Positions 1,845-45,143 of a stretch of DNA of 64,000 bases are shown here, piece after piece. The DNA is taken from contig JAIPEW010000005.1 of the NCBI GenBank assembly GCA_021736985.1, positions 26,413 through 90,412 of the forward strand. The letters run 5' to 3'. This stretch comes from Clostridiales bacterium (GTDB lineage Bacteria; Bacillota; Desulfotomaculia; Desulfotomaculales; VENG01). Every line of letters begins with the position of its first letter. The first letter of the stretch is position 1. Below the pieces are notes generated by a model. It did not search any database. It had not been told where the DNA came from and saw nothing but the letters and a program-made list of their open reading frames with translations. The translations under genes were made by a program, and so were the position numbers.

Positions 1845-2068
1845 CGGGCCGGTGGTACTCTCCGCTCCCTACTCCGGCACATAAAATTGTTCGAGCTCAA
1901 TCGGCCTCGGGCGCCGGAAAACTCGCTCCCTGCGGTCGCTCAGACATGCACCGGCGCTTTTCCTCGGCCTCATTCGCTCTTTGAATGCGCCTCCGTACGT
2001 CCGCTCCAAGTACCACCGGCCTTTACATGGTTGCTGAAAGAGTTTTCATACTCCGTTGTGAGCAATGC
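1845..2068 (-). repeat. GC-rich structured repeat module, full-length copy U1, in the hypE-hypD spacer
   Basis: About 85-90% identical by eye to the reverse complement of 39722-39945. A 12-bp closing stem joins ggccggtggtac (1847-1858) and gtaccaccggcc (2010-2021). The conserved leader ccgttgtgagcaa lies at 2053-2065. The element is clearly more GC-rich than the AT-rich intergenic DNA elsewhere in the window. Confidence 0.85.
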
Positions 2069-7889: not shown

Positions 7890-8030
7890 GATCTGACATG
7901 TACCGGCGCTTTTCTTCGGCCTCAATCGCTTTTTGAATACGCCTCTGTACGTCCGCTCCGAGTACCACCGGCCTTTAAACGGTTGATGAAAGGTTTTCAT
8001 ACTTACGTTGTGACCAAAAAGTTCGTGAGG
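7890..8030 (-). repeat. GC-rich structured repeat module, 5'-arm-truncated copy U2
   Basis: It aligns with the right half of U1 (ctgacatgtaccggcgcttttcttcggcctca..gagtaccaccggcctttaaacggttgatgaaaggttttcatacttacgttgtgacc). The left closing-stem arm is missing. Confidence 0.8.
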
Positions 8031-9343: not shown

Positions 9344-10252
9344 CTAATTATCTAAGCTGGAAATAATGTAATCTGCAATTTTCTCTTGCTGTAGTATTTG
9401 TTCATGTCCATATATGCTTCCAGGCAGTTTATTTAGTGGATTTACAGAAATAAAGCCGCCGTTCGTTAATAAGTGATCCTCCTGATCCAACAAGCAGGCT
9501 GACCGTGGAAGGACGATTAAATCCTGTGATGTTGCAAAAGTAGCTATGTCTATTCCATTTTTTTGAGCTTTTTTGACTACTTCTATTCTCCAGCTTTCTA
9601 TTTTGGGTTTGTATTTATGCTGCAGCATAAGCTGGCGAACTGCTGTGCTGCCCCAGATGTAACCGTTGTTTTCCAGTATGTTTAAAATATAACCAGGTAT
9701 GTTATAAATATTTCCCGTGAGCGGGGAATTTAGAGTAATTACATTTTTTATTTTATTAACCTTTTTATTGTCATTTTCTAAGTATTTGCTTACAAGGTTA
9801 AATGCTATAAGGCCGCCCAGGCTGTGCCCGACAAGTATGAACTTTGCTTTTGGGTAGGCCCGGGATACGTTTTCAATAAGATTATCCAGGTACATCATAC
9901 TTATTTCAACAGGCTGTCCTGTATCTTCAATGCTGTATTTGTTGGGATGCCATTTACCGTTTATTATGTTTCCCCCGCGATAACTGTATTGTATAAACCT
10001 GCAGTCCTTATAATTAAAACCGTATGGAGTCAACTTCTTTCTAAAAAAATTAAAACACATGTTGTTATAGCAAGTCCCATCGCATTTTGTACTTAAACCT
10101 TTTATAAACACTATGTATGTGTTTGTAAAAGTGTTTTTTTTTGTACTTGCACCGGCGTTTTTTACCAGATAATTGCACAAGTAAAAACAGGTTATAAAAA
10201 TTATAACCGCTGCTGCAGAATTGAGAAATAAAAAAGATTTTTTACTGGTCAT
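9344..10252 (-). CDS. membrane-anchored alpha/beta hydrolase (lipase/esterase-like)
   Basis: N-terminal TM helix and the nucleophile elbow VGHSLGG. Confidence 0.65.
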   Translation of the reverse strand: MTSKKSFLFLNSAAAVIIFITCFYLCNYLVKNAGASTKKNTFTNTYIVFIKGLSTKCDGTCYNNMCFNFFRKKLTPYGFNYKDCRFIQYSYRGGNIINGKWHPNKYSIEDTGQPVEISMMYLDNLIENVSRAYPKAKFILVGHSLGGLIAFNLVSKYLENDNKKVNKIKNVITLNSPLTGNIYNIPGYILNILENNGYIWGSTAVRQLMLQHKYKPKIESWRIEVVKKAQKNGIDIATFATSQDLIVLPRSACLLDQEDHLLTNGGFISVNPLNKLPGSIYGHEQILQQEKIADYIISSLDN

Positions 10253-25480: not shown

Positions 25481-25511
25481 AAAACAGCCTTTTATAAAAG
25501 GCTATTTTTTA
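25480..25511. terminator. bidirectional terminator shared by the 76-aa gene and the ATPase
   Basis: aaaaacagccttttataaaaggctatttttt. Confidence 0.75.
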
Positions 25512-28500
25512 TTTGTTTAGTATATCAAGTCCCTGGCTCATTATAGAACTGACAAAAACAACGCCCCATTGTGAGGGATCAAGTGAGCATGTCCCAAAAA
25601 TTCTTTGCCCGGCAGGTAAATGAATTGCTGAAAAGAGCAAACCTGCAGAAGATGCTACTGCACTTCCTACATATAAGTTTGATGATGTTTTGTTATCCTT
25701 ATTTTTGCGGCAATCAAGTACATGTAAAAGCTGACTTAGGGTAATTGAACTCAGCGTCATGCTGCGTGCAGTGGAAAGATTGTACCGGTTTAATCCCCAC
25801 ATGTATGCTCCGATTCCTGTAATTCCAATAGTAAGACCGCGGCTTATTATCTGGTTTCTTGTCTTTTTGTCTATAAAAGCTTCATCTTTATCCCTTGGTG
25901 GCTGTTTTATCAGGTCAGGAGGGAATTTGTCTATAGACAATGCTAAAGCAGGTAATCCATCTCCTAACATATTCAGCCACAGCAGTTGAATAGGAAGCAG
26001 TGGAAGCGGTAGGCCTCCTGCTACGGCAGTAAACATCAGGATAATTTCACCAACATTAGTAGCAAGAAGGTAGCGTATAGATTTCTTAATATTTTCATAA
26101 ATTCCACGTCCTTGTTCTACGGCAGTTACAGCTGTACCAAAATAATCATCTGTAATAATTATTTGTGCAGCTTGTTTTGTAACATCTGTACCGCTTTTAC
26201 CCATGGCAATTCCTATGTCTGCTTCTTTAACTGCTGGAGCATCATTTATTCCGTCGCCTATCATGCCAACAATATGCCCCTGTTGTTTAAAAGTATTTAT
26301 AATTAATACTTTTTGATTCGGATAAAGTCTTGCAAATACTCTTACTTTGTGAATAACATTTATTAAATCATTTTCATCCATTTCATCTATTTCTTTGCCT
26401 GTTAGCACTTCATTCGAACTATTTACCAGGCCTAATTCGCTTCCAATTGCAAATGCGGTTTGTTTATGATCTCCGGTAATCATGGCTACTCCTATTCCTG
26501 CCTGTTTACACTTGTTTAAGGCATGAGTAACTTCGGGCCTTGGAGGATCGGTCATACCTATCAGGCCTAGAAAGACTTGTTCTGTTTCTTCATTCTTTTC
26601 CACGTTATTTTCAAAGGCTTCCGGAAGTATTTTATATGCTACTCCGAGTACGCGCATGCCGCGTGTAGTCATGTAGTTGTTTGCTTCAACGATGGACTGG
26701 TAGTATTCATTGTCCAGTAAATTTTTATTGTTTTCAGCTCGATAGTGAGTACAGTTTTCTAATATAACTTCAGGAGCCCCTTTTGTAAAAGCTATATACT
26801 GGTTTTTAGGCCCCCTGCATATCTGCGTCATTTTGCATTTCTCAGAATCAAAAGGAATCTCTCTAACAGGCATGTATTCTTCATTCAAGTTATTTAAATT
26901 AATCCCTGCACGACCGGCTGCAGTAAGTATTGCACCTTCTGTTGGATCTCCTTTTACTTCCCATTCGTTATCGTTTTTAACAATTTTAGACGTACAGCAT
27001 TGTGCTGCAGCACAAAGGGTAAAGTATATATTATCCTGGTTGTGTATATCTTGACCGTTTGCAGGTTTAATAAAGCCATTTTCAGGGTTATATCCATCTC
27101 CTTCAATACTCCACCATTCATTTTGTCCACAGTAAACAAGTTTTATAGTCTGCTGATTTTGAGTCAGGGTACCCGTTTTATCAGTACAGATCATTGTAGC
27201 ACATCCCAGCGTCTCTACTGCCGGCAGTTTTCGTACAATTGTATTTGCTGAAGCCATTTTGTGTACGCCGGAAGCAAGGGCAAGAGTTACAATAGCCGGC
27301 AGTCCCTCGGGGATTGCAGCGACCGCTAGGCTTACCCCTGTTATAAGCATTTGCAGCAGTGATCCTCCGCGCATTAGTCCTGCAATAACAACAATGCCGC
27401 TAACAACGGTAGAACCCTTTAATATGGTTTTCCCAAGGTCTGCTAATCTTTTTTGCAGTGGGGTCGTTTCATTATCATTATTATTTAACATTTGTGCTAT
27501 ATGTCCGAGTTCTGTGTCCATACCCGTGCCAACTACAATTCCTTTTCCATGTCCCTTGGTAATTATGGTTCCCATAAAGGTAAGGTTATGGCAGTCCAAT
27601 AAATACATGCAGTTGTTTTCTGTAGAAATTTTCTTGGGTACGGGATAAGATTCCCCTGTTAAGGCAGATTCTTCTACTTCCAGTGCGTTTGATTCTATTA
27701 ACCTGGTGTCAGCAGGTACAATATTACCCTGTTCGATTATTATTATATCACCGGGTACTAATTCTACCGCGGGAATAGATTGTTCTCTGCCATCACGGAT
27801 TACAGCAGCAGTAGATGTTGTCATTTTCTTTAATGCAGATAAGGATCCTTCTGCCTTGTGTTCTTGTACAGCACTTAAGACGGCATTAATAATTACAATT
27901 GATATAATAGCCAGAGCATCACCTTTCTCGCCTAACAGCAGACACACAACGCTGGAGCCGACAAGTACATATATAAGGAAGTCTTTTAGCTGTGCTAATA
28001 CTCTACTAAAAAAACTTGGAGGGGGGGGTTCAGCTAACATGTTTTTGCCGTATAAAGTCAGGCGTGAATTCACTTCTTGTAGATCTAGTCCTGTTGAACC
28101 ACTGCTGTTTAATATATCTATTACTTTTTCCCTGGACATCATGGCCCATGGTTTCGTGTAAATACTTTCATCATTAGTATTATCAGAGGCAGCTGCATAT
28201 TGTTTTACGGCCAGGTTGTCGTAATACTTATGTGTATTATTGCTCAATTTCTTTAATAATTTTAAAGAATGTACTGTGATTAATATACTTGTAACATTAT
28301 TAAATAATCCAGCCCCTAAGGGGGAGATAAGGCTTGAGGCAGCCAGCGCCAGACCAAAGGAATTAAAACCGCCTGAAAGTGCAAAACTCTGGCGGGTTGT
28401 TTCCCCCACGTGAAAAGAGACTTTAAAGGCTGTTGGTAGATTTTTAATACCATTATCTACAATAATATCTGTTTTAGAATTGAGTTTAGATAATGTTTTT

Positions 28501-30140
28501 TCAGTTTTTAGCAGGATGTTCACATCAGTTATATTGGACAAATTTGTTATATCATCAAGGTTATTTGCAATTAGACCTACATAATTGTTGTTTTTATGTA
28601 ATAATGACATTTCATCCAGCATTTCTTCGTTTGATTTTACTGTATGCAAACCTAGTTCTTTTGCAATTATGCTAGTACTTTCATTATTATCTTTGTTCAT
28701 AACGTAGATAGATTTAATTCCCCGGGTTCTGATATTGTATATTGTTTCTTTTGCTTGATTAGATACAGAAGATTTAATACCAATTAAACCTATAAGTTCA
28801 CCTTCCTGATAGATATAGTAAGGACACTGGTAATGATGCTTTAATCTTTCTGCCTTGTAAAAGTTAAAATCGCATAAATCTATTTTAGAAGATATATACC
28901 TGTAGTCTCCTATCAATACTTCTTTGGAATATATTTCACCGCATATGCCGCTGCTGGTAATATCTTTAACAGTGACATGTTCCAGGTTTTGCACCTGTAT
29001 ACTGGAGGAAAATGCTTCATTAAGTGCATGTCCTGCTTTTTTAAAGAGTGAAGCAGCAATAGTTAAAACATCTTCTTCAGTATATCCTTGCAGAGGTATT
29101 ATTTTACCGATCTCGAGACCTGGGTCAAACATTTCTTGCTCTGTAAAAATTAATGTATCCACGTGCTCCAACACTTCCAGGGACTTTCTGTTATGTACTA
29201 AAATACCGTGTTTTGCTGCAAGGGCCATGCCTGAAGATATGGATGAGGAACGATAGAGTTGAAGTGGTCCTGGAGATGCAGCAATAAGCATTGCTAAACT
29301 TTTTTCAAAATTACGTGCTGCTAAACCAGCAAGACCGGCAAGTCCAAAATATACTGGCGTGATCTTTTGTGCATAATTTTCTGCTTCTTTCTCAAGTGGG
29401 GAAGCTGCAATTCTTCTATTTTTAGAATTAAATGTACTTATAGGTTTAGAACTAAATTTTACATTTTCAATTGTGTTGTCAGCATATTCTTCTGCAATAT
29501 CGCGCGTCTGTTTTACTAGTATAGATTGAAGTAAAGATCCCAGGTTAGAAAGCCAGATCACCAGCAGACCGGAAATATTCTCCCGCAGCAGTATAGTAAT
29601 CAAACTTGTTATACTAATAATTAGGTCATGATTAATTTGCTTTTTTCTGGTTAGAGCAGTAATCCCGCTGCGAATTATAGGATAGCCTGAAATTAATGTA
29701 GTTGCATTGGCTATGTAGGATAAGCTTGTAGACCGCGACAAAGATGAAGGTCCTGCGATCAAACGCTTTACAGTAAAACCAGCAAGTATAGTGCCGCCCA
29801 GAGTTACATTAAATAATTCTCGCCTTATTGGCAAATCTCCATATTCTTTCTCTACATGTTCTTTTTCGTTTTTAGAAACTGCTGTATCATTAGTAGATAG
29901 GCATAGATAATTTATTTCATTGATAATCAGATCATAGCTAATTAGATCCTTATTATAATGAATAAGCATACGACCTGAATTTATACTTCCTTTAACATCA
30001 GTTATACCATTCAAGCTAGATAGTTTATTTATTAAATGTGATAATAAGACTATATTTTTATTTAGACCTGGTATTTTAATACGTATTCTTTCAGGCAAAT
30101 TATGAACTACTTCTGGTGATGTGTTGTGTATTGCTTTCAT
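25509..30140 (-). CDS. tandem P-type ATPase (1,543 aa): degenerate P1B-like N-module fused to an intact P2A (Ca2+/cation-type) pump
   Basis: N-module (aa 1-~660): an HMA-like start VHNLPERIRIKIPGL without CxxC, AASPGP in place of the CPC helix, VDTLIFTEQEMF in place of DKTGT, and LIANNLDDITNL in place of GDGxND. C-module: TGES, ICTDKTGTLTQN, KGAPE, DPPR, MITGDH, GDGINDAPAVK and IPEGLP. Confidence 0.85.
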   Translation of the reverse strand: MKAIHNTSPEVVHNLPERIRIKIPGLNKNIVLLSHLINKLSSLNGITDVKGSINSGRMLIHYNKDLISYDLIINEINYLCLSTNDTAVSKNEKEHVEKEYGDLPIRRELFNVTLGGTILAGFTVKRLIAGPSSLSRSTSLSYIANATTLISGYPIIRSGITALTRKKQINHDLIISITSLITILLRENISGLLVIWLSNLGSLLQSILVKQTRDIAEEYADNTIENVKFSSKPISTFNSKNRRIAASPLEKEAENYAQKITPVYFGLAGLAGLAARNFEKSLAMLIAASPGPLQLYRSSSISSGMALAAKHGILVHNRKSLEVLEHVDTLIFTEQEMFDPGLEIGKIIPLQGYTEEDVLTIAASLFKKAGHALNEAFSSSIQVQNLEHVTVKDITSSGICGEIYSKEVLIGDYRYISSKIDLCDFNFYKAERLKHHYQCPYYIYQEGELIGLIGIKSSVSNQAKETIYNIRTRGIKSIYVMNKDNNESTSIIAKELGLHTVKSNEEMLDEMSLLHKNNNYVGLIANNLDDITNLSNITDVNILLKTEKTLSKLNSKTDIIVDNGIKNLPTAFKVSFHVGETTRQSFALSGGFNSFGLALAASSLISPLGAGLFNNVTSILITVHSLKLLKKLSNNTHKYYDNLAVKQYAAASDNTNDESIYTKPWAMMSREKVIDILNSSGSTGLDLQEVNSRLTLYGKNMLAEPPPPSFFSRVLAQLKDFLIYVLVGSSVVCLLLGEKGDALAIISIVIINAVLSAVQEHKAEGSLSALKKMTTSTAAVIRDGREQSIPAVELVPGDIIIIEQGNIVPADTRLIESNALEVEESALTGESYPVPKKISTENNCMYLLDCHNLTFMGTIITKGHGKGIVVGTGMDTELGHIAQMLNNNDNETTPLQKRLADLGKTILKGSTVVSGIVVIAGLMRGGSLLQMLITGVSLAVAAIPEGLPAIVTLALASGVHKMASANTIVRKLPAVETLGCATMICTDKTGTLTQNQQTIKLVYCGQNEWWSIEGDGYNPENGFIKPANGQDIHNQDNIYFTLCAAAQCCTSKIVKNDNEWEVKGDPTEGAILTAAGRAGINLNNLNEEYMPVREIPFDSEKCKMTQICRGPKNQYIAFTKGAPEVILENCTHYRAENNKNLLDNEYYQSIVEANNYMTTRGMRVLGVAYKILPEAFENNVEKNEETEQVFLGLIGMTDPPRPEVTHALNKCKQAGIGVAMITGDHKQTAFAIGSELGLVNSSNEVLTGKEIDEMDENDLINVIHKVRVFARLYPNQKVLIINTFKQQGHIVGMIGDGINDAPAVKEADIGIAMGKSGTDVTKQAAQIIITDDYFGTAVTAVEQGRGIYENIKKSIRYLLATNVGEIILMFTAVAGGLPLPLLPIQLLWLNMLGDGLPALALSIDKFPPDLIKQPPRDKDEAFIDKKTRNQIISRGLTIGITGIGAYMWGLNRYNLSTARSMTLSSITLSQLLHVLDCRKNKDNKTSSNLYVGSAVASSAGLLFSAIHLPAGQRIFGTCSLDPSQWGVVFVSSIMSQGLDILNK

Positions 30141-34561: not shown

Positions 34562-35503
34562 TTGTTATCAGGAATTGGAAAATTATACAAAATGTTTGTG
34601 GTTTTGTTAATGCTGGTTATTATATTATTGTCAGGATGTGGTCAAACAGAGATAAGTACGAGTAATTCTGAATTTCCAATGACTTTTATAGATGACTTGG
34701 ATAGAAAAGTAACGATTAATAAAGTTCCTCAGCGAATAGTATCTTTAGCTCCTGCTAATACAGAAAATCTTTTTTCTTTAGGACTGGGTGATAAAATTGT
34801 TGGAGTTACCAGGTTTTGTAATTATCCACCTGAAGCGAAAGAAAAGCCTGTAATCGGTGGGTTTTCTAAGCCTAATGCTGAGCTTGTAGTTGCTGCAAAC
34901 CCTGACCTGGTAGTGGCTACTAATAGACATAAGGAATTTATTAATCAACTAGAATCTAGTGGAATTAAGGTAATTTCAATTGAAGGTTATGAATTAACTA
35001 AAATTTTAGATAATATTAAACTGATTGGTAAAATTACTGGAAAGTCAAAAAAGGCAGAAGAGTTAGTATCTGATATGCAGAAGCGTATTGATAGGGTTGT
35101 TGTTAAGGTAAAAAATCTTTCTCAAGAAGAAAAACCTTCTGTATATTTTGAGATATGGCCTGATCCTCTTACCACGGGTGGGGCAAAAAGCCTTTTAAAC
35201 AATTTAATTGAAACGGCAGGAGGAAAAAATATCGTTGGGGACGTGGAAAAAGATTGGGTGACTCTTAATCCTGAAGTGTTACTGGCAGAAAATCCTAAAG
35301 TTGTAATCATATCTCATCACGGGGCGTCTAAAAAAACATTGTCCCAGGTGAAGGCTCGAGAAGGTTGGAAGAGAATAGAAGCAATTAAAAACAATCGCGT
35401 ATATTATATTGAGGACAAGGATATTGTCCATCTTGCAGGACCCCGGATAGTGGATGGCTTGGAAGTTGTAGCAAAATGTATTCACCCTAAACTTTTTGAG
35501 TAA
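34562..35503 (+). CDS. ABC transporter substrate-binding lipoprotein, BtuF/cobalamin-siderophore (Peripla_BP_2) family
   Basis: Lipobox LLSGCGQ. RIVSLAPANTENLFSLGLGDKIVGVTRFCNYPPEA is the classic BtuF-like N-lobe. Confidence 0.8.
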   Translation: MLSGIGKLYKMFVVLLMLVIILLSGCGQTEISTSNSEFPMTFIDDLDRKVTINKVPQRIVSLAPANTENLFSLGLGDKIVGVTRFCNYPPEAKEKPVIGGFSKPNAELVVAANPDLVVATNRHKEFINQLESSGIKVISIEGYELTKILDNIKLIGKITGKSKKAEELVSDMQKRIDRVVVKVKNLSQEEKPSVYFEIWPDPLTTGGAKSLLNNLIETAGGKNIVGDVEKDWVTLNPEVLLAENPKVVIISHHGASKKTLSQVKAREGWKRIEAIKNNRVYYIEDKDIVHLAGPRIVDGLEVVAKCIHPKLFE

Positions 35504-35521
35504 CAATAGGAGGCACCTTTT

Positions 35522-36565
35522 TTGAATTTTCGATGGCGTTGGAGAATTGTATTTTCTTTGTTGTTTGCTGCACTGGTATTTACAGTAATTTTTTGCACGG
35601 CCATAGGTCCGGTCTCGATAGGATTCTTTACTGTAGTAAAAATAATAATTAATAGTTTGCCGGGGGCTAAAAATTTTATGCCAGCTGAAAATTGGCCGAT
35701 TACTTATGAAACTATAGTGTTTAATTTACGATTAGCAAGGGTGATTTTAGCTCTATTAGTTGGTGCTGCACTAGCAACTTCGGGAGTGGTTTTGCAAGGA
35801 CTCTTGCAAAATCCAATGGGAGATCCCTACATATTAGGTATTTCTTCTGGTGCAGCTTTAGGGGCTACAACAGCGATACTGTTTGGACTGGGGAATTACA
35901 TGTTAGGTATTTTCACCATACCTGCAATGGCTTTTTTAGGAGGGGCAGGTACTACTTTTGTAGTGTATAATATTGCTAAGGTAGGTAACCGGGTATCAAT
36001 GTCAACTCTATTGCTGGCAGGTATTGCTGTAGGTTCTTTTCTTTCTGCTGTTGCTTCTTTAACTATGGTAATAAGTGGTGAAAATTTACACCAGGTGATT
36101 TTTTGGTTAATGGGTGGATTATCCAATCGCGGTTGGAAGCATGTAATGATTTTATTACCCTATATTATAATTGGTATTATTCCCATGATTTTATATTCTA
36201 GAGATTTAAATGTTATGCTGTTAGGCGAAGAATCTGCTCAACATATGGGAGTAGAGGTGGAAAAGTTAAAAAAAATAATGTTGGGAGTTGCTGCGCTTGT
36301 GACAGCTTCTGCCGTATCTGTTAGCGGTATTATTGGATTTGTAGGTTTAATAATTCCTCATATCGTCAGGTTGTTGGTTGGTCCTGATCATCGTGTTCTT
36401 TTACCAGCTTCAGCTCTTTTAGGTGCAATTTTTCTTGCCGTTGCAGATACCCTGGCCAGAGTAGTTGCAGCACCATTAGAAATACCTGTTGGGATAATTA
36501 CAGCATTATGTGGAGGTCCTTTTTTTTTATATTTGCTTAGAAAAAAGAAAAACCCGGGATTTTAG
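35522..36565 (+). CDS. FecCD/BtuC-family ABC permease
   Basis: Polytopic protein with LLVGAALA..SG, GDPYILGISSGA and GIITALCGGPFFLYLL. Confidence 0.88.
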   Translation: MNFRWRWRIVFSLLFAALVFTVIFCTAIGPVSIGFFTVVKIIINSLPGAKNFMPAENWPITYETIVFNLRLARVILALLVGAALATSGVVLQGLLQNPMGDPYILGISSGAALGATTAILFGLGNYMLGIFTIPAMAFLGGAGTTFVVYNIAKVGNRVSMSTLLLAGIAVGSFLSAVASLTMVISGENLHQVIFWLMGGLSNRGWKHVMILLPYIIIGIIPMILYSRDLNVMLLGEESAQHMGVEVEKLKKIMLGVAALVTASAVSVSGIIGFVGLIIPHIVRLLVGPDHRVLLPASALLGAIFLAVADTLARVVAAPLEIPVGIITALCGGPFFLYLLRKKKNPGF

Positions 36566-36607
36566 GTTAATATATGTTTAATGCAGAGAATAATGGGGGT
36601 AAACAAT

Positions 36608-37885
36608 ATGTCCGCAATATTAAAAATCCTGGATATTGACTGTGCTTATGAATCTGTAAAAGTATTAGATGGAATAAACTTCTCTATAGATAAAGGAAGT
36701 TTTACTGGTATTATCGGGCCTAATGGTTCCGGGAAATCAACACTTCTACGCTGTACTACACAAGTTTTGAGACCTGAAAAAGGTACAGTATTTTTAAATG
36801 ATTTTAATTTAAGTATGATGAAATCTCCTGAAATAGCTCGACTCATGGCAGTGGTGCCGCAAGAGACGTCAATCACTTTTTCTTTCACTGTTAAGGAAGT
36901 AATTATGATGGGGCGCTCACCCTATTTGAACCGTCTTCAGTCTGAAAGTAAAGAAGATTACGAGATAGTTAATTATGCAATGAAATTAACTAATACTCAT
37001 TATCTTGCAGAGCGTCCTGTTACTGCTATTAGTGGAGGAGAGCGCCAGAGGGTTATTATAGCAAGGGCTTTAGCTCAACAGCCGGAAATACTTTTATTAG
37101 ATGAACCTATTTCTCATCTTGATATTAATTACCAGCTTGAAATTCTAAATCTGCTTCTTAAATTAAATCAAGAAAAAAGGCTTACTGTTATACCGGTATT
37201 TCACGATTTAAATTTAGCTGCCCAGTATTGTGATCAATTGATTTTATTAAAAGAGGGTAAAGTTTTTGCAATTGGCACCCCTGAAGAAGTATTAACAGAA
37301 AAAAATATAAAGGATGTATATGGTACAAATGTTATGATAAAAAAACATTTTGTTACCGGGCGTCCAAATATTGTATGTTTTTCTACTTGTTCTCAACATA
37401 CATCTTTTAAAGGTAAAGTTCATTTAATCTGTGGTGGCGGAGCTGGTTCATCAATTTTAGAATTAATAGTTAGCCAGGGATATAAGCTGACTGCTGGAAT
37501 ATTAAATACCGGTGACTTTGATTGGGAGATGGCTAAGTTTTTAAGTGTAAAGCTGGTAGAAGAATCCCCATTTTCATCTATTTCATATTATAATCATAAA
37601 AGAAATCTTGAATTAATAAAAAATACTGATGTTTGCGTAATGGCGAGCATCCCTTTTGGACAAGGAAATTTAGAGAACCTGAAGGCTGTAGAATATGCAT
37701 GTGATCTTGGGAAACCAGTTATTTTAGTAGAAGAACAGGGAATAAATAAACGTGATTTTACAGGGGGACAGGCCAGGATTATTTATAATAATTTGAAAAA
37801 TAAAAAAGGTGTAATAGTTGTAAATTCAAGTGTTGAGGTATTAAATGTGCTGCCAGGTTTGTTATCTTCAGAGCAGCATAATTAA
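36608..37885 (+). CDS. ABC transporter ATPase (FepC/BtuD-like) with an extra ~165-aa C-terminal domain of unknown function
   Basis: Walker A GPNGSGKST, signature SGGERQR and Walker B LLLDEP. After aa ~265 comes an additional domain (KVHLICGGGAGSSILELIVSQGYKLTAGILNTGDFDW..). Confidence 0.85.
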   Translation: MSAILKILDIDCAYESVKVLDGINFSIDKGSFTGIIGPNGSGKSTLLRCTTQVLRPEKGTVFLNDFNLSMMKSPEIARLMAVVPQETSITFSFTVKEVIMMGRSPYLNRLQSESKEDYEIVNYAMKLTNTHYLAERPVTAISGGERQRVIIARALAQQPEILLLDEPISHLDINYQLEILNLLLKLNQEKRLTVIPVFHDLNLAAQYCDQLILLKEGKVFAIGTPEEVLTEKNIKDVYGTNVMIKKHFVTGRPNIVCFSTCSQHTSFKGKVHLICGGGAGSSILELIVSQGYKLTAGILNTGDFDWEMAKFLSVKLVEESPFSSISYYNHKRNLELIKNTDVCVMASIPFGQGNLENLKAVEYACDLGKPVILVEEQGINKRDFTGGQARIIYNNLKNKKGVIVVNSSVEVLNVLPGLLSSEQHN

Positions 37886-38725: not shown

Positions 38726-38771
38726 TAATATAATCTACAAATGCAAATATTTGCATTTGTAGATTATATTA
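38726..38771. promoter_or_regulatory. perfect 46-bp palindrome overlapping the znuA promoter region (candidate Zur operator)
   Basis: TAATATAATCTACAAATGCAAAT|ATTTGCATTTGTAGATTATATTA. I checked it base by base and both 23-nt arms are perfectly complementary. It ends 24 nt before the znuA GTG. Confidence 0.7.
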
Positions 38772-38795: not shown

Positions 38796-39659
38796 GTGAA
38801 TAGAATAGTTTTTTTATTGACAGTACTGGTTGTGGTAATAATTGTATGTGCAGGTTGCAGCAAGCCAGTGATTGATACAAGTGTTGATGATACCGGTATT
38901 GAAGATATAAAAGTAGCTGTTAGTATTTTGCCGCAGGCCAGGTTTGTAGAAAAAATTGGTGGAGATAAGGTTAAAGTTCAGGTGATGATCCCACCCGGTG
39001 CTTCTCCTGTAACTTATGAGCCAACTCCAACCCAGTTAAAAAATCTAAGTCGAGCCGATATGTATGTCAGAGTAAAATGTTTACCGTTTGAAAAGGCATG
39101 GATGGGTAGAATTAAAAGTGCCAATGATAATATGCATATCATTGACTCTTCCATGGGAATTAAAATAATCAATAAGGACCCGCATATATGGCTTTCTCCA
39201 GTTCTTGTAAAGAAACAAGTGGAGCATATATATCAAGGTCTGGCTGAGATTGACCCGCAAAATAAAGATTATTATAAAAATAATAAAGAAAGATATGTCT
39301 CTGAGCTTGAAAAGTTAGACCGTGAAATAAAAAATGTTTTATCAGGGATTTCAAATAAAAAGTTTATAGTGTTCCACCCGTGCTGGGGGTATTTTGCAAG
39401 GGAGTATGGCTTAAAGCAAATTCCAGTAAAAACCGAAGGTAAGAAGTTAACTCCCCGGGATATAACCAGAGTTGTAGATAAAGCAAGATCAAGCCGTGTT
39501 AAAGTTATTATTGTTTCGCCGCAGCATGATACAAAGAGTTCAGAAGTAATAGCAAGAGAGATTGAAGGTGAAATTATATTAGCTAACCCGTTAGCGAAAG
39601 ATTACATTGAAAATATTAGACATTTTGCCGGTAAGCTGTCCAAACTAAATCGATCCTGA
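38796..39659 (+). CDS. znuA: metal (probably zinc) ABC transporter substrate-binding lipoprotein, ZnuA/TroA family
   Basis: Lipobox VCAGCSK plus DPHIWLSP and FHPCWGYFAREYGL motifs. Operon context with znuCB-zur. Confidence 0.8.
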   Translation: MNRIVFLLTVLVVVIIVCAGCSKPVIDTSVDDTGIEDIKVAVSILPQARFVEKIGGDKVKVQVMIPPGASPVTYEPTPTQLKNLSRADMYVRVKCLPFEKAWMGRIKSANDNMHIIDSSMGIKIINKDPHIWLSPVLVKKQVEHIYQGLAEIDPQNKDYYKNNKERYVSELEKLDREIKNVLSGISNKKFIVFHPCWGYFAREYGLKQIPVKTEGKKLTPRDITRVVDKARSSRVKVIIVSPQHDTKSSEVIAREIEGEIILANPLAKDYIENIRHFAGKLSKLNRS

Positions 39660-39704
39660 GCGTTTAGTTTGGCCTGTGAGGTAAACGAAGTGAACGAGGG
39701 GCAA

Positions 39705-39945
39705 TGGCAAGCCCTATGAGCTTCTTGCTCACAACGGAAAATGAAAATCTTTCATCAACTGCGTAAAGGCTGGTGGTACCCGGAGCGGACGTACGGAGGC
39801 GCATTTAAAGAGCGAATGAGGCAGAGAAAAAGCGCCGGTGTATGTCTGAGCGACTGGAGGAGCGAGTTTTCCGGTGCCCGGGGTCGATTGAGTACGAACA
39901 ATTTTATGTGCCGGAGTAGGGAGCGGAGAGTACCACCAGCCTAGC
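39705..39945 (+). repeat. GC-rich structured repeat module, full-length copy U3, in the znuA-znuC spacer
   Basis: Leader tgctcacaacggaaaatgaaaatctttcatcaactgcgtaaa, then a 12-bp closing stem of ggctggtggtac (39768-39779) and gtaccaccagcc (39930-39941). It is the reverse complement of U1. Confidence 0.85.
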
Positions 39946-39981
39946 AAAAACTAGAGTTTTCTGATCGCCCATGGGTCATGG

Positions 39982-40162
39982 CCCACAACGCTGAATGAAA
40001 ACTTTTCTGACAGCTGGGTGGAGGGTCGGGGCAAAGGGCAGAGGTGAGAAGTGGGAAATTAGATGGTGGAAAAAAGAAAAGGTCTACGCAGCAGATTTCC
40101 TCACACTTCTCACCTCCCATATCACACTTTGCAAATGACGGGCTATGCAACGCACCCAGACT
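39982..40162 (+). repeat. variant repeat module U4: same leader, different hairpin body
   Basis: The leader ccacaacgctgaatgaaaacttttctgacag matches the U3 leader. Closing stem ctgggtg (40014-40020) / cacccag (40153-40159). An inner ~19-bp hairpin pairs gaggtgagaagtgggaaat (40041-40059) with atttcctcacacttctcacctc (40095-40116). Confidence 0.7.
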
Positions 40163-40255
40163 TTACTACCTTCCGGAAATCCCCAGTTTCTTTGGATTTA
40201 TAGATTGTTAATTGTGCTTAAGCCAGAGTTTTTGAATTAAGGTAGGGGTTTTTAT

Positions 40256-42029: not shown

Positions 42030-42105
42030 GAAGGAAACCACCGGCCATCATCCAGCTATGAGAAAAGTTTTAATACTTTGTTGTGAGCAAAAAGCTCGTG
42101 GATGT
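42030..42105 (-). repeat. repeat module fragment U5 (leader plus one stem arm only)
   Basis: ggaaaccaccggcc..gagaaaagttttaatactttgttgtgagcaaaaagctcgtgga matches the leader end of U1/U2, including the extension caaaaagctcgtg shared with U2. Confidence 0.65.
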
Positions 42106-42160: not shown

Positions 42161-42592
42161 GTGTTTAATGATTTAGAAAAAAAATTGGTACAAGAAGGTT
42201 ATAAAATTACAAAAAACAGGCGGGTTATACTGGAAGTATTTAATGAAACACCAGAAAGCTGGATAACTGCCCAGGATTTATTTGAAAAAGTATTAAATAA
42301 AAATCAAAAGATTAATTTCTCAACTGTGTATCGGAATCTGAATATGCTAACTAAAATAGGAATACTGTACCAGGTAAATAAAGAACAGGGATTGGGTTAT
42401 TACAGGCTAAATAATAATCAGAGTTACCACCATCACTTGATTTGTAAGTCATGCGGGAAAACCTGGAGAGTGCAATTTTGTCCTTTAAAAGAACTTGGGG
42501 TTGAGCATATTCAGGGTTTTACTATTGTAGACCATAAGTTTGAGATATACGGGTATTGCAGCGACTGTAAAAAACAAGGCAAAATTGATTGA
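42161..42592 (+). CDS. zur: Fur-family metalloregulator, probably Zur
   Basis: 143 aa with a winged-helix N-domain, HHHLICKSCGK and CSDC zinc-site motifs. It lies directly downstream of znuACB. Confidence 0.7.
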   Translation: MFNDLEKKLVQEGYKITKNRRVILEVFNETPESWITAQDLFEKVLNKNQKINFSTVYRNLNMLTKIGILYQVNKEQGLGYYRLNNNQSYHHHLICKSCGKTWRVQFCPLKELGVEHIQGFTIVDHKFEIYGYCSDCKKQGKID

Positions 42593-42617
42593 CGAACTAC
42601 TATATTAATGATACTAT
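42589..42617 (+). promoter_or_regulatory. sigma-A-type promoter for the riboswitch transcript
   Basis: TTGACG (42589-42594), a 17-nt spacer, then TACTAT (42612-42617). It overlaps the zur stop codon. Confidence 0.6.
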
Positions 42618-42629
42618 ATACAAAAGTTG

Positions 42630-42795
42630 AATTTGTATAGGTGCTTTAAAAGCTTAATAGGGAAACCGGTGTAAATCCGGTGCGGTCCCCGCCACTGTGA
42701 TGGGGAGGAACTTCATGTTAATGCCACTACCCAAGTTTGGGTGGGAAGGTATGAAGCTCCTGTGAACCTGAGCCAGTAGACCTGCCTTTATAGTT
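42630..42795 (+). promoter_or_regulatory. cobalamin (B12) riboswitch aptamer
   Basis: AATAGGGAAACCGGTGTAAATCCGGTGCGGTCCCCGCCACTGTGATGGGG .. GCCACTACCC..GGGTGGGAAGG .. GAGCCAGTAGACCTGCC (B12 box). All the hallmark blocks occur in the canonical order. Confidence 0.9.
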
Positions 42796-42859
42796 ATAAT
42801 GTATTTACCACTGCCTACGGGTGATAGGGAAATGGTTATTTTTATTGTTTTTATACAGT

Positions 42860-42900
42860 AAAAAAACCGGCGCCTCTAAGTGGGCCGGTTTTTATTTTTT
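42860..42900. terminator. strong bidirectional terminator between the riboswitch transcript and feoB
   Basis: aaaaaaaccggcgcctctaagtgggccggtttttattttttt. Confidence 0.8.
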
Positions 42901-42981
42901 TACAAGTTTATCCCATACTCTAAACTCATACATTTTAAAACTCGGTTATACTGCCGGGTCTTTTTTTTGTTTATAGTTGTA

Positions 42982-44370
42982 TTAAACTAATCCAAATCCT
43001 TTTGCCAGCAAGTTTATTATCATACATGTTACAATACCAACTGCAGTAGGTATTGCGATAGCTAAAAAGGTCCAGTACCAGCTGTGTTGTTCTTTTTGTA
43101 TAGTATACAAAGTAGTACCGCAAGGCCAGTGGCAAAGGGCAAAAACCATTGTACACAGTGCAGTAAGCCAGGTCCAACCGTTTTCATCTACGAGAAGATG
43201 GCGCAGGGCTTCTAAACTGCTTAGTTCTAACATCCCACTGCCTGATATATAGCTCATTATTAATATCGGAAAAACAATTTCATTTGCCGGTAAACCCAGT
43301 ATAAAGGCGGTTAATATGAAACCGTCCATCCCCATAAGCTGGGCAAATGGATTCAGCCAACTTGCAAAAGCTGCTAATAGACTTGTATCACCTACCATGG
43401 TGTTAGCCATTATCCAAACTATACCGCCTGCTGGAGCAGCTATAATCATAGCCCTTGTGAGTACGAATATTGTTCTGTCCAGTATTGAACGTACAATAAC
43501 TTCACCTATTTTAGGTTTTCTGTATGGAGGTAATTCTAAAGTAAAGGATGAAGGTACTCCTTTTAATAATGTTTTAGAAAGCAGCCAGGATATAAACAGG
43601 GTTATGGTAATGCCAAATACAACCAGGCCTGCTACTGTTAATGTTGCAATTATACTGCTGATGCTTGCGGCAACAGAGCCCCCGATAAAGATTGTAGCCA
43701 GGGCTATTAATATAGGGAATCTACCGTTGCAGGGAACAAAGTTGTTAGTAAGAATAGCTATTAATCTTTCCCGCGGTGATTCAATAATCCGGCAGGATAT
43801 AATACCTGCAGCATTACAGCCAAAGCCCATGCTCATTGTCAGTGCCTGCTTGCCGTGGGCCCCGGCTTTTTTAAAAAACCGGTCCATATTAAATGCCACC
43901 CGTGGTAAATAACCCAGGTCTTCTAAAAGAGTAAATATAGGAAAGAATATAGCCATGGGCGGCAGCATTACTGAGACTACCCAGGCCAGGCTACGGTAAA
44001 CACCCGTAACTAAAAAACCGCGCAACCATCCGGGAGCATTTAAAGCCATGAATACCTCTGTTAACCTGTCTTCAATCCAGAAAAGTCCTGTAGCTAACAT
44101 AGAAGACGGGACGTTTGCTCCTGCAATAGTTATCCAGAATACAGTTGTTAGAAGTGCTAGCATTATAGGAAAACCCCATATGGGCGAGGTTAAAATATTA
44201 TCTATTTTGCGGCTCCAATCTGTGCTTTTTTTATCTTCAACATATTGTGTATTGCTGGTAATGTTTTCTGCAGAACTGTAGATGCTTTTTACAATATTGT
44301 CCCTGACTTCATTTTGATTAGGACAACTTTTAGCTGCTTCATCTAAAAGTTGCCTAATTGGGGAACTCAT
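42982..44370 (-). CDS. feoB: ferrous iron transporter FeoB, membrane (permease) portion as a separate polypeptide
   Basis: 462 aa and polytopic, with FeoB gate-region motifs (GFGCNAAG, FVPCNGRFP). Its ATG overlaps the upstream stop (ATGA), with GGAGG 7 nt upstream. Confidence 0.85.
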   Translation of the reverse strand: MSSPIRQLLDEAAKSCPNQNEVRDNIVKSIYSSAENITSNTQYVEDKKSTDWSRKIDNILTSPIWGFPIMLALLTTVFWITIAGANVPSSMLATGLFWIEDRLTEVFMALNAPGWLRGFLVTGVYRSLAWVVSVMLPPMAIFFPIFTLLEDLGYLPRVAFNMDRFFKKAGAHGKQALTMSMGFGCNAAGIISCRIIESPRERLIAILTNNFVPCNGRFPILIALATIFIGGSVAASISSIIATLTVAGLVVFGITITLFISWLLSKTLLKGVPSSFTLELPPYRKPKIGEVIVRSILDRTIFVLTRAMIIAAPAGGIVWIMANTMVGDTSLLAAFASWLNPFAQLMGMDGFILTAFILGLPANEIVFPILIMSYISGSGMLELSSLEALRHLLVDENGWTWLTALCTMVFALCHWPCGTTLYTIQKEQHSWYWTFLAIAIPTAVGIVTCMIINLLAKGFGLV

Positions 44371-45143
44371 GCCATTACCTCCTTTGACATTTCTAATATC
44401 TTATGTTTGTCGTAAAAATCTTCTAAGGCACTTATTAATTTTGTGTCTCTATCAAGAAGGCGCAGTGCTATCCATCGTGTACTCAGTTCATCGCCCAGCA
44501 AAGGCTTGATTTTTGATTCTAAATGTAAAATAGCATCTTCTAACTTTTTATCATACTTTACCAGGTTAGGCCGGGGTTTTATTTGCCCGCTAATTAACTT
44601 GTTAGTTGTATTCATCAATTCTTCTATACCTTCTTTATTGCGTGCCGCAGTAGGGATGACTGGTATTCCCAGTGTCCTGCTTAATTTTTCAGTGTCGATT
44701 TGTATTTTCTTTCTCCGGGCTTCATCAATCAAATTTAAACAAACGATTACATTACTGGTTATTTCCATGACTTGTAATACCATGTTCAGATTTCTTTCCA
44801 TGCAAGTTGAATCAACAACTACAATTGTAACTTCAGGCTTAGCAAAACAAATAAAGTCTCTTGCCACTTCTTCTTCTACTGAATTTGCTAACAGAGAATA
44901 TGTTCCTGGCAAGTCAACTACCAGGTATTTGCGAGTATTATAAATGTAAGTACCTTTACTTTGCAGTACAGTTTTGCCGGGCCAGTTTCCAGTATGCTGG
45001 CGCAATCCAGTTAAAGCATTAAACAGGGTGCTTTTTCCAGTATTAGGATTACCAGCTAGTGCAATTACAGGTTCGTTGCTGATACATGTTATATTGAAGT
45101 TTTCTCTAGAAGTAATGCCAGTAGATTGATAAGTTAATCCCAT
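44367..45143 (-). CDS. feoB: ferrous iron transporter FeoB, cytoplasmic G-domain plus helical domain as a separate polypeptide
   Basis: G1 GNPNTGKSTLFNALTG, G3 DLPG and G4 NLID. Confidence 0.85.
   Translation of the reverse strand: MGLTYQSTGITSRENFNITCISNEPVIALAGNPNTGKSTLFNALTGLRQHTGNWPGKTVLQSKGTYIYNTRKYLVVDLPGTYSLLANSVEEEVARDFICFAKPEVTIVVVDSTCMERNLNMVLQVMEITSNVIVCLNLIDEARRKKIQIDTEKLSRTLGIPVIPTAARNKEGIEELMNTTNKLISGQIKPRPNLVKYDKKLEDAILHLESKIKPLLGDELSTRWIALRLLDRDTKLISALEDFYDKHKILEMSKEVMA

What the first reader, a model, noticed from the sequence alone, without database searches (positions are those of the whole stretch)
42589..42900. Orphan cobalamin riboswitch with its own promoter, no downstream ORF, and convergent on feoB
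A textbook B12 aptamer (42630-42795) is preceded by a near-consensus promoter (TTGACG-17-TACTAT, 42589-42617). No plus-strand gene follows it. It is followed by a weak hairpin plus U-tract (42807-42852), then a strong bidirectional terminator (42860-42900), then the 3' end of minus-strand feoB (42982). The BtuFCD-like importer 8 kb upstream (34562-37885) has no B12 riboswitch. This may therefore be a stand-alone B12-sensing RNA of about 230-290 nt. Precedents for the concept are the riboswitch-controlled sRNA EutX/Rli55 and the B12-controlled antisense AspocR in Enterococcus and Listeria. Any read-through would be antisense to feoB, which could couple B12 status to ferrous iron uptake.
Basis: partly seen in the sequence, partly recalled or inferred. 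Interest (0 to 1): 0.72.

Follow-up and report, generated by a model that had tools for sequence, protein, structure and literature searches.

The report
Cobalamin riboswitch with no gene to control
A complete, intact vitamin-B12-sensing RNA switch sits between a zinc-uptake operon and an iron transporter gene with nothing to regulate downstream, so it is either a free-standing B12-sensing RNA or a leader recently cut off from its operon.

Summary
Infernal places a full-length RF00174 cobalamin aptamer at 42622-42803 (+), scoring 120.8 bits against a cut-off of 31.5. A promoter-like site overlaps the zur stop codon, and no credible ORF lies before the 3' end of feoB.

- The "bidirectional terminator" T1 (42860-42901) is the riboswitch's own expression-platform terminator. 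It lines up with the terminators of two related riboswitches, one of which is followed 40 nt later by a cbiK-type gene.
- A second terminator, T2 (42936-42968), works on the + strand only and ends 13 nt before the feoB stop. Read-through into the feoB coding sequence is therefore unlikely.

Only two metagenomic relatives have a riboswitch after zur:
- In L025 it is again promoter, aptamer, terminator and no ORF, followed by a second riboswitch.
- In L028 the adenosyltransferase gene cobO lies between zur and the riboswitch.

Three relatives have feo and znu head to head, whereas the window has them tail to tail, so a rearrangement touched this junction.

My estimates are a self-contained B12-responsive non-coding RNA at about 0.47, a stranded leader at about 0.40, and antisense control of feoB at 0.08 or less. 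No transcript or binding data exist, and no close genome was found.

The parts
42161..42592 (+). zur (Fur-family repressor), last gene of znuA-znuC-znuB-zur. There is no terminator between its stop and the riboswitch.
   Evidence: PF01475 FUR. The closest homologues are named zinc uptake regulators. No + strand terminator was found between 42592 and 42860.
42589..42617 (+). Promoter-like site TTGACG-17-(TGa)TACTAT. The -35 hexamer overlaps the zur stop codon. The predicted start is near 42624.
   Evidence: 9 of 12 matches with TG before the -10. The count in the region is at chance level. Its position matches the promoter-like sites of related riboswitches.
42622..42803 (+). Cobalamin riboswitch aptamer, class-I RF00174 architecture, full length.
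   Evidence: 120.8 bits, model positions 1-189. The B12-box helix is kept through a compensatory G-C to A-U change, visible in the printed alignment.
42686..42691 (+). L5 loop UCCCCG, closed by G42684-G42685 / C42692-C42693.
   Evidence: Position in the cmscan alignment; coordinates.
42814..42828 (+). P13-like hairpin CCUA[CGGGUGA]UAGG. The loop can form 6-7 pairs with L5, with one bulged U.
   Evidence: duplex of -9.2 kcal/mol. It occupies the same position as the 6-bp P13 hairpins of L025 RS1 (9364-9382) and L021 (5021-5040). A competing local hairpin GCC-UACG-GGU is the MFE of the isolated 20-mer, so this is an inference.
42832..42861 (+). Nine-codon mini-ORF MVIFIVFIQ* behind GGUGAU. Judged not to be a gene.
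   Evidence: Read from the sequence. It is U-rich and of low complexity. L025 has no equivalent peptide.
42860..42901 (.). T1: A7, a stem CCGGCGCC/GGGCCGG, then a U-tract. It is the riboswitch's platform terminator on + and the likely feoB terminator on -.
   Evidence: -17.6 kcal/mol on + and -16.5 on -. It aligns with the terminators of L025 RS1 and L021.
42902..42935 (+). Spacer of about 35 nt between T1 and T2. It is present only in transcripts that read through T1.
   Evidence: No ORF, no Rfam family above chance, and no repeat elsewhere.
42936..42968 (+). T2: a + strand-specific intrinsic terminator (ACUCGGU-UAUACU-GCCGGGU, then C and U8). It ends 13 nt before the feoB stop.
   Evidence: -9.7 kcal/mol on +. 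On - it is -6.5 with a C-A mismatch and only four U.
42982..44370 (-). feoB-C, the membrane half of a split FeoB, convergent on the riboswitch.
   Evidence: PF07670 and PF07664.

Best explanation
This is a complete cobalamin-riboswitch transcription unit with no coding sequence attached. It consists of a promoter, a class-I aptamer, a P13 docking hairpin and its own intrinsic terminator T1.

**Proposed mechanism (inferred).**
- Transcription starts near 42624. It may also arrive from the znu-zur operon, which has no terminator of its own.
- With B12 bound, the L5-L13 kissing loop docks P13 and RNA polymerase stops at T1, giving an RNA of about 270 nt.
- Without B12, some polymerases pass T1 and are stopped about 70 nt later at T2, giving an RNA of about 340 nt.
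- Neither form enters the feoB coding sequence.

**Consequence.** The only output is the RNA itself, and the only B12-dependent difference is the T1-T2 segment. That segment is complementary to the feoB 3' UTR.

I take the unit to be a maintained, self-contained B12-responsive non-coding RNA linked to zur. It is of the riboswitch-controlled ncRNA kind, and its target is unknown.

**Shown:** the aptamer, the absence of an ORF, both terminators, and the similar unit in L025.

**Inferred:** promoter use, the B12 dependence of T1, and any trans function.
For: - **Intact aptamer.** It scores 120.8 bits over the full model. That equals the riboswitch in L021 that sits in front of a cbiK-type gene (113.5 bits) and L025 RS1 (121.2 bits).
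- **Platform looks intact.** A P13-like hairpin has an L13 loop complementary to L5 (6-7 bp with a 1-nt bulge, -9.2 kcal/mol). This is the docking geometry described for cobalamin riboswitches (PMC10907184).
- **T1 belongs to the riboswitch.** It aligns with the platform terminators of L025 RS1 and L021.
- **Same layout in a diverged relative.** L025 has zur, no terminator, a promoter-like site, a 121-bit aptamer, P13 and T1. About 170 nt without an ORF then lead to a 13-bp terminator, a new promoter-like site and a second riboswitch. No pseudogene remnant was found by tblastn. Two intact gene-less units at the same syntenic position argue for selection.
- **Gene-like boundaries.** T2 closes the unit before feoB.
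Against: - Only one other gene-less instance exists. Its orthology rests on position and terminator similarity, and its contig ends 70 nt into the next riboswitch.
- Most Zur relatives have no riboswitch after zur. This covers L026, L030-L036, L114 and L003 by Infernal, and 80 metagenome loci by nhmmer.
- The T1-T2 segment is only about 35 nt plus a hairpin, with no recognisable functional motif.
- No preferred pairing was found with the translation start regions of btuF, feoA or 33 other genes in the window.
- The window lineage has a rearranged feo/znu order, and an importer without a riboswitch lies 8 kb away. Both fit a stranded leader.
- There are no expression data.
Confidence: 0.47

Rival explanations
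1. Stranded leader. The riboswitch once headed a B12 transport or synthesis operon. A rearrangement or deletion in this metal-homeostasis island removed the operon and left the promoter, aptamer and T1. T2 may be the lost operon's terminator. The unit is still transcribed but regulates nothing and has not yet decayed.
For: - In L025, L026 and L028 the feo and znu operons are head to head. In the window they are tail to tail, and the riboswitch sits exactly at the new junction.
- Relatives have B12 elements after zur: cobO followed by a riboswitch in L028, and a second riboswitch in L025.
- In L113 an operon with cbiC, cbiQ and a cobN fragment converges on feoB-C, the same geometry as here.
- In L021 a riboswitch and a cbiK-type gene follow feoB-C.
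- The BtuFCD-like importer 8 kb upstream lacks the riboswitch such operons usually carry.
- The short spacer between T1 and T2 would fit a deletion scar between a leader terminator and an operon terminator.
- The riboswitch after zur is patchy among relatives.
Against: - No decay is visible. The aptamer score equals those of riboswitches with genes, the P13/L5 complementarity is retained, and the promoter-like site is intact.
- L025 would need a second, independent stranding at the same position.
- No pseudogene remnant was found, and no repeats mark a breakpoint at T1/T2.
Confidence: 0.4
2. B12-controlled antisense regulator of feoB, of the AspocR type. Without B12 the transcript runs on against feoB and lowers ferrous iron uptake.
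For: - The orientation is convergent, with only 178 nt between the aptamer end and the feoB stop.
- T1 is shared by both strands, so the two RNAs overlap by about 40 nt at T1, or about 110 nt if the riboswitch RNA reaches T2.
- This FeoB subfamily is repeatedly found next to B12 elements in relatives.
Against: - Two + strand terminators in series, T1 (-17.6 kcal/mol) and T2 (U8 tract), stand before the feoB stop. AspocR has only the riboswitch terminator and yields a 1,400-nt antisense RNA (PMC8079631).
- In L025 the same kind of unit faces a second riboswitch, not feoB, so antisense to feoB cannot be the conserved role.
- No known logic links B12 to Fe(II) uptake.
Confidence: 0.08
3. Leader of an unannotated tiny ORF: the 9-codon MVIFIVFIQ at 42832-42861 behind GGUGAU, or the 51-aa GTG ORF at 42821-42976.
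For: A GGUGAU Shine-Dalgarno-like motif lies 6 nt before the AUG at 42832, inside the P13 region.
Against: - The peptide is a run of U-rich codons in a U-tract.
- L025 has no homologous peptide.
- The 51-aa ORF contains both terminator hairpins and has no Pfam match.
Confidence: 0.03

Closest known systems
Rfam RF00174 cobalamin riboswitch (class I, AdoCbl type) with a transcription-terminator platform
   Same: Full-length match at 120.8 bits. It has an L5 loop, a P13-like hairpin and an intrinsic terminator in the usual order. The platform is laid out like those of L021 and L025 RS1.
   Different: It is not in the 5' leader of any gene. It sits after zur and faces the 3' end of feoB.
EutX (Enterococcus faecalis) / Rli55 (Listeria monocytogenes): B12-riboswitch-controlled sRNA that sequesters EutV
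   Same: A promoter and B12 riboswitch with a terminator, then an extension and a second terminator, with no ORF. B12 would choose between a short and a long RNA (PMC8079631).
   Different: - Those aptamers are class IIb (PMC11477304), whereas this one matches the class-I model.
- The extension here is about 70 nt. T2 has the hexaloop UAUACU and T1 a 7-nt loop, so there is no dual-hexaloop ANTAR site.
- No eut genes or ANTAR regulator were found among the ORFs of 100 aa or more in the window.
AspocR (Listeria monocytogenes): B12-riboswitch-controlled antisense RNA to pocR
   Same: A B12 riboswitch convergent on a protein gene, giving a short terminated form of about 230 nt (PMC8079631).
   Different: In AspocR, read-through gives a 1,400-nt antisense RNA across the target. 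Here T2 stops read-through 13 nt before the feoB stop, and feoB has no known link to B12.
SreA/SreB (Listeria): terminated SAM riboswitch RNAs acting in trans
   Same: The terminated riboswitch RNA itself would be the active product (PMC8079631).
   Different: SreA still controls a downstream operon in cis. Here there is no cis target, and no trans target was found.
Orphan riboswitches of unknown function, for example the c-di-GMP-I element between CD2517 and CD2517.1 in Clostridioides difficile
   Same: A recognised aptamer with no gene downstream and no known role (PMC11477304).
   Different: A different ligand class. Here a second instance exists at the same syntenic position in a relative.

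Membership tests
RF00174 cobalamin riboswitch | Covariance-model score at or above the curated gathering score (31.5 bits) over the whole model | tested here: met
   120.8 bits, E 9e-30, model positions 1-189 of 189.
RF00174 cobalamin riboswitch | Expression platform with a P13 hairpin whose loop can kiss L5 (PMC10907184) | tested here: inconclusive
   CCUA[CGGGUGA]UAGG at 42814-42828 pairs with L5 UCCCCG (6-7 bp, 1-nt bulge, -9.2 kcal/mol). It occupies the position of P13 in L025 and L021. Cross-pairing controls were not specific, and a competing local hairpin exists.
RF00174 cobalamin riboswitch | Lies in the 5' leader of a B12 transport, synthesis or B12-independent isozyme gene | tested here: not met
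   There is no ORF between 42804 and the feoB stop at 42982, and no gene is called there in the NCBI or Logan records.
RF00174 cobalamin riboswitch | Binds a cobalamin and changes termination or translation | not testable with these tools
   Needs in-line probing, ITC or in-vitro transcription with AdoCbl.
EutX/Rli55-type riboswitch-controlled sequestering sRNA | Own promoter, B12 riboswitch terminator, extension and second terminator, no ORF | tested here: met
   Promoter-like site at 42589-42617, T1 at 42860-42901, T2 at 42936-42968.
EutX/Rli55-type riboswitch-controlled sequestering sRNA | ANTAR target site (two adjacent hexaloop hairpins) in the extension | tested here: not met
   Only T2 lies in the extension. 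Its loop is UAUACU, and there is no second hexaloop hairpin.
EutX/Rli55-type riboswitch-controlled sequestering sRNA | Class IIb aptamer and eut / EutVW neighbourhood | tested here: not met
   The best clan hit is RF00174 at full length. Among the window ORFs of 100 aa or more, Pfam-scanned here or carrying precomputed Pfam hits on the source contig, none is an eut, pdu or ANTAR gene.
AspocR-type riboswitch-controlled antisense RNA | Riboswitch convergent on the target gene | tested here: met
   feoB-C is on the minus strand, with its stop at 42982-42984.
AspocR-type riboswitch-controlled antisense RNA | Read-through of the riboswitch terminator yields a long antisense RNA over the target's coding or initiation region | tested here: not met
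   T2, a + strand-specific terminator with a U8 tract, ends 13 nt before the feoB stop. Whether it is efficient in vivo was not tested.
Decayed riboswitch remnant | Loss of conserved nucleotides or pairs and a sub-threshold score | tested here: not met
   The score equals those of riboswitches with genes: 120.8 against 113.5 and 121.2 bits.

The most novel reading that the evidence does not exclude
A zur-linked, gene-less class-I cobalamin riboswitch unit is conserved in a clade of uncultured Clostridia/Desulfotomaculia-like bacteria. It would work as a free-standing B12 sensor RNA. It could also ride on the 3' end of the zinc-uptake operon transcript. Its B12-dependent 3' extension, or the ligand-bound RNA itself, would act in trans. 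That would tie B12 status to metal homeostasis by a mechanism different from ANTAR sequestration (EutX/Rli55) and from long antisense RNA (AspocR).
Probability: 0.25. Interest if true: 0.7.

Novelty: new member of a known kind. Interest (0 to 1): 0.45.

Why it matters
Almost all known cobalamin riboswitches act in cis on a downstream gene. The few that drive non-coding RNAs (EutX/Rli55, AspocR) revealed new regulatory logic.

A class-I B12 riboswitch kept without any gene, at the same place next to zur in two diverged lineages, would be a further example with a different and still unknown output. It would be a simple unit on which to test how riboswitch-only RNAs act.

If it is instead a stranded leader, it marks a recent rearrangement in a metal-homeostasis island. 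It would also show that an orphaned riboswitch can look perfectly intact, which is a useful caution for annotation.

Tried and rejected
- **Genome scan with Zur.** No close relative was found. The best was 48% identity in Alkaliphilus serpentinus, and the Infernal scan of that locus (L003) found no riboswitch.
- **Metagenome scan with a Zur alignment.** It returned 80 loci, none with a B12 aptamer by nhmmer. nhmmer is less sensitive than a covariance model, so three of these loci (L034-L036), together with six loci, were rechecked with Infernal. These were also negative.
- **Extending L113.** The aim was to see whether the cbi operon converging on feoB starts with a riboswitch after zur. The 10-kb flank did not reach the operon start.
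- **Pseudogene remnants.** tblastn with CobO, the CbiK fusion, BtuF-like, MscS, ArsP and CN-hydrolase proteins found nothing in the window intergenic region or in L025 8869-9937.
- **Small ORFs.** No Pfam match and no conservation.
- **Trans targets.** Duplex energies of the platform/T1/T2 RNA against 35 translation start regions in the window showed nothing for btuF (-15.3) or feoA (-13.6) against a mean of -16.5. The top hits are terminator GC cores. An earlier whole-length duplex run was uninformative.
- **Sub-threshold Rfam hits over 42821-42993** (PrrF, STnc370, Thr and Leu leaders). All are far below their gathering scores and are driven by the terminator hairpins, so they were rejected.
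- **Antiterminator prediction by MFE folding.** No clear antiterminator appeared. None appeared for the L021 control either, so the test is uninformative.
- **Repeats marking a breakpoint at T1/T2.** None found.
- **Orthology from the 5' 60 nt of the aptamers** (window against L025 RS1, RS2 and L028). The regions are too conserved to discriminate.
- **An early reading that P13 is degenerate in the window.** This was withdrawn after the CCUA/UAGG hairpin and its L5 complementarity were found.

Full report
**What is there**

Infernal against all of Rfam finds one gathering-level hit in the 64-kb window. It is RF00174, the cobalamin riboswitch, at 42622-42803 on the + strand, scoring 120.8 bits against a cut-off of 31.5 and covering model positions 1-189 of 189. 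The conserved cores are present. In the B12-box helix a G-C pair is replaced by A-U through changes on both sides, so the helix is kept (alignment).

Upstream lies the promoter-like pair TTGACG-17-TACTAT, with TG before the -10, at 42589-42617. Its -35 hexamer overlaps the stop codon of the preceding gene. The scan gives as many such sites as shuffles do, so the site is not significant alone. However, L025 RS1, L025 RS2, L028 and L021 all carry a comparable pair 20-45 nt before the aptamer.

**Surroundings**

- The + strand genes upstream are znuA (38796-39659), znuC, znuB and a Fur-family repressor (42161-42592). The repressor's closest named homologues are zinc uptake regulators.
- No terminator separates zur from the riboswitch. 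Operon transcripts should therefore also run into the aptamer.
- Downstream and convergent lie feoB-C (42982-44370), feoB-N and feoA.
- The source is NCBI MAG GCA_021736925.1 ('Clostridiales bacterium'). An independent Logan assembly carries the same junction.
- Neither record calls a gene between zur and feoB. The 51-aa and 36-aa ORFs there run through terminator hairpins and match no Pfam family.

**The platform**

After the aptamer a small hairpin can be drawn: CCUA[CGGGUGA]UAGG at 42814-42828.
- Its loop can form 6-7 pairs, with one bulged U, with the L5 loop UCCCCG at 42686-42691 (-9.2 kcal/mol).
- This is the L5-L13 kissing-loop geometry by which cobalamin riboswitches dock their expression platform (PMC10907184).
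- L025 RS1 and L021 have clean 6-bp hairpins with 7-8-nt loops at the same position.
- The assignment is an inference. Cross-pairing controls were not specific, and an alternative local hairpin competes.

A U-rich linker then leads to T1 (42860-42901): seven A, a GC-rich stem and a long U-tract.
- T1 folds at -17.6 kcal/mol on the + strand and -16.5 on the - strand.
- It aligns in position and sequence with the terminators that follow L025 RS1 and the L021 riboswitch.
- In L021 the start codon of a CbiK/TP_methylase fusion gene follows that terminator by about 40 nt.
- T1 is therefore best read as the riboswitch's own, presumably B12-dependent, terminator. It also serves feoB on the other strand.

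- It has a 7-bp stem and a U8 tract on the + strand (-9.7 kcal/mol).
- On the - strand it is a poor hairpin (-6.5 kcal/mol, a C-A mismatch, four U).
- T2 ends 13 nt before the feoB stop.

**Relatives**

No close genome exists in the collections. The nearest FeoB-C proteins are 73-76% identical and the nearest Zur proteins 60-66%. They come from uncultured Bacillota and Desulfotomaculum-like organisms.

| Locus | Zur identity | What follows zur | Riboswitch after zur |
|---|---|---|---|
| L025 | 62% | 290 nt, then a promoter-like site and RS1 | Yes, 121.2 bits |
| L028/L029 | 60% | cobO (PF02572), then a promoter-like site and a riboswitch | Yes, cut by the contig end |
| L026 | 60% | MscS-family channel gene | No |
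| L030-L033, L114 | 56-66% | other genes or no called gene | No |
| L034-L036 | 48-52% | not examined | No |
| 80 metagenome Zur loci | 57% or less | not examined | No (nhmmer) |

In L025, RS1 is followed by P13 and T1. About 170 nt without a credible ORF then lead to a 13-bp terminator, a 10-of-12 promoter-like site and a second riboswitch cut by the contig end. No pseudogene remnant was found there.

B12 elements also neighbour this split-FeoB subfamily elsewhere:
- In L021 the order is feoB-C, a riboswitch, then the cbiK-type gene.
- In L113 an operon with CbiC, CbiQ and a CobN fragment converges on feoB-C.

In L025, L026 and L028 the feo and znu operons are head to head. In the window they are tail to tail, with the riboswitch at the junction.

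**Interpretation**

The anatomy leaves one cis-independent output, the RNA itself.
- With B12 the unit should end at T1, at about 270 nt from a start near 42624.
- Without B12 it should end at T2 at the latest, at about 340 nt.

The only ligand-dependent difference is about 70 nt that is complementary to the feoB 3' UTR. Antisense transcription across the feoB coding region, the AspocR mode (PMC8079631), is disfavoured by T1 and T2 in series. It is also disfavoured because the similar unit in L025 faces a second riboswitch rather than feoB.

An EutX/Rli55-like layout (riboswitch, terminator, extension, terminator) is present. The defining ANTAR site, the class-IIb aptamer and the eut context are absent.

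Two readings remain close:
- **Maintained, self-contained B12-responsive ncRNA.** In favour are the undiminished aptamer score, the retained platform, the gene-like boundaries, and a second intact gene-less unit at the same position in a lineage diverged to 62-75% protein identity.
- **Stranded leader.** In favour are the rearranged gene order exactly at this junction, B12 genes or a further riboswitch downstream of zur in relatives, a BtuFCD-like importer 8 kb away without a riboswitch, patchy distribution, and the lack of any recognisable functional element or target.

I put these at 0.47 and 0.40, with antisense to feoB at 0.08 and a tiny ORF at 0.03.

**Limits**

- The contigs of L025, L028 and L029 all end inside a B12 aptamer core, so what lies behind those riboswitches is unknown.
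- No expression or binding data exist.
- The B12 dependence of T1 rests on homology of layout, not on a predicted antiterminator.

**Verdict**

The stand-alone-RNA idea is plausible but unproven, and the feoB antisense idea is unlikely. The riboswitch is an ordinary family member in an unusual, possibly conserved, gene-less setting, and is of moderate interest.

Noticed in passing
window 39660-40255; copies at 1851-2065 (-) and 7902-8000 (-); short pieces at 39981-40020 and 42049-42097 (inverted): A roughly 600-nt GC-rich insertion (GC 0.50-0.53 against 0.31-0.38 around it) sits inside the znu operon between znuA and znuC. It folds better than all 100 shuffles on both strands (z -3.7 and -3.0). 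Its 215-nt core is a multi-copy element: 90% identical to a copy between hypD and a hypE-like gene, co-oriented with that operon, and 86% identical to a partial third copy. There is no ORF, no transposase and no Rfam family, and relatives' znu operons lack it. It looks like a MITE-like structured intergenic repeat of unknown kind.
   Followed up: partly
window 38726-38771: A perfect 46-bp palindrome (TAATATAATCTACAAATGCAAAT | ATTTGCATTTGTAGATTATATTA) lies 25 nt upstream of the znuA start. It is a candidate Zur operator.
   Followed up: no
window 42982-45143 (-); L021, L022, L024-L028: FeoB is split into separate GTPase (258 aa) and membrane (462 aa) genes that overlap by 4 nt. The split is conserved in dozens of homologues of 456-469 aa from Desulfotomaculum-like and other Bacillota.
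   Followed up: partly
L021 4830-6696; L113 2444-9245: B12 elements recur beside this split-FeoB subfamily. In L021 an RF00174 riboswitch and a CbiK/TP_methylase fusion gene directly follow feoB-C with no terminator between. In L113 an operon with CbiC, CbiQ and a CobN fragment converges on feoB-C.
   Followed up: partly
L025 9158-9937; ends of L028 and L029: L025 has two cobalamin riboswitches 500 nt apart, each with its own promoter-like site. Between them lie repeated GGCTGATCA words, a perfect 8-bp GC-rich hairpin and a 13-bp terminator, with no Rfam match. Three independent contigs (L025, L028, L029) end inside a B12 aptamer core. This is probably assembly breakage at repeated riboswitch cores.
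   Followed up: partly
window 36581-37885 (+): The ABC ATPase of the BtuFCD-like importer carries an extra C-terminal domain of about 170 aa (PF27219 MJ0874, in the precomputed hits). Its best match is an archaeal-type corrinoid ABC transporter ATPase model at 327 bits, below the cut-off of 537.
   Followed up: no
window 25509-30140 (-): A 1543-aa P-type cation ATPase has an N-terminal extension of about 650 aa. Only an HMA_2 domain matches at its start.
   Followed up: no
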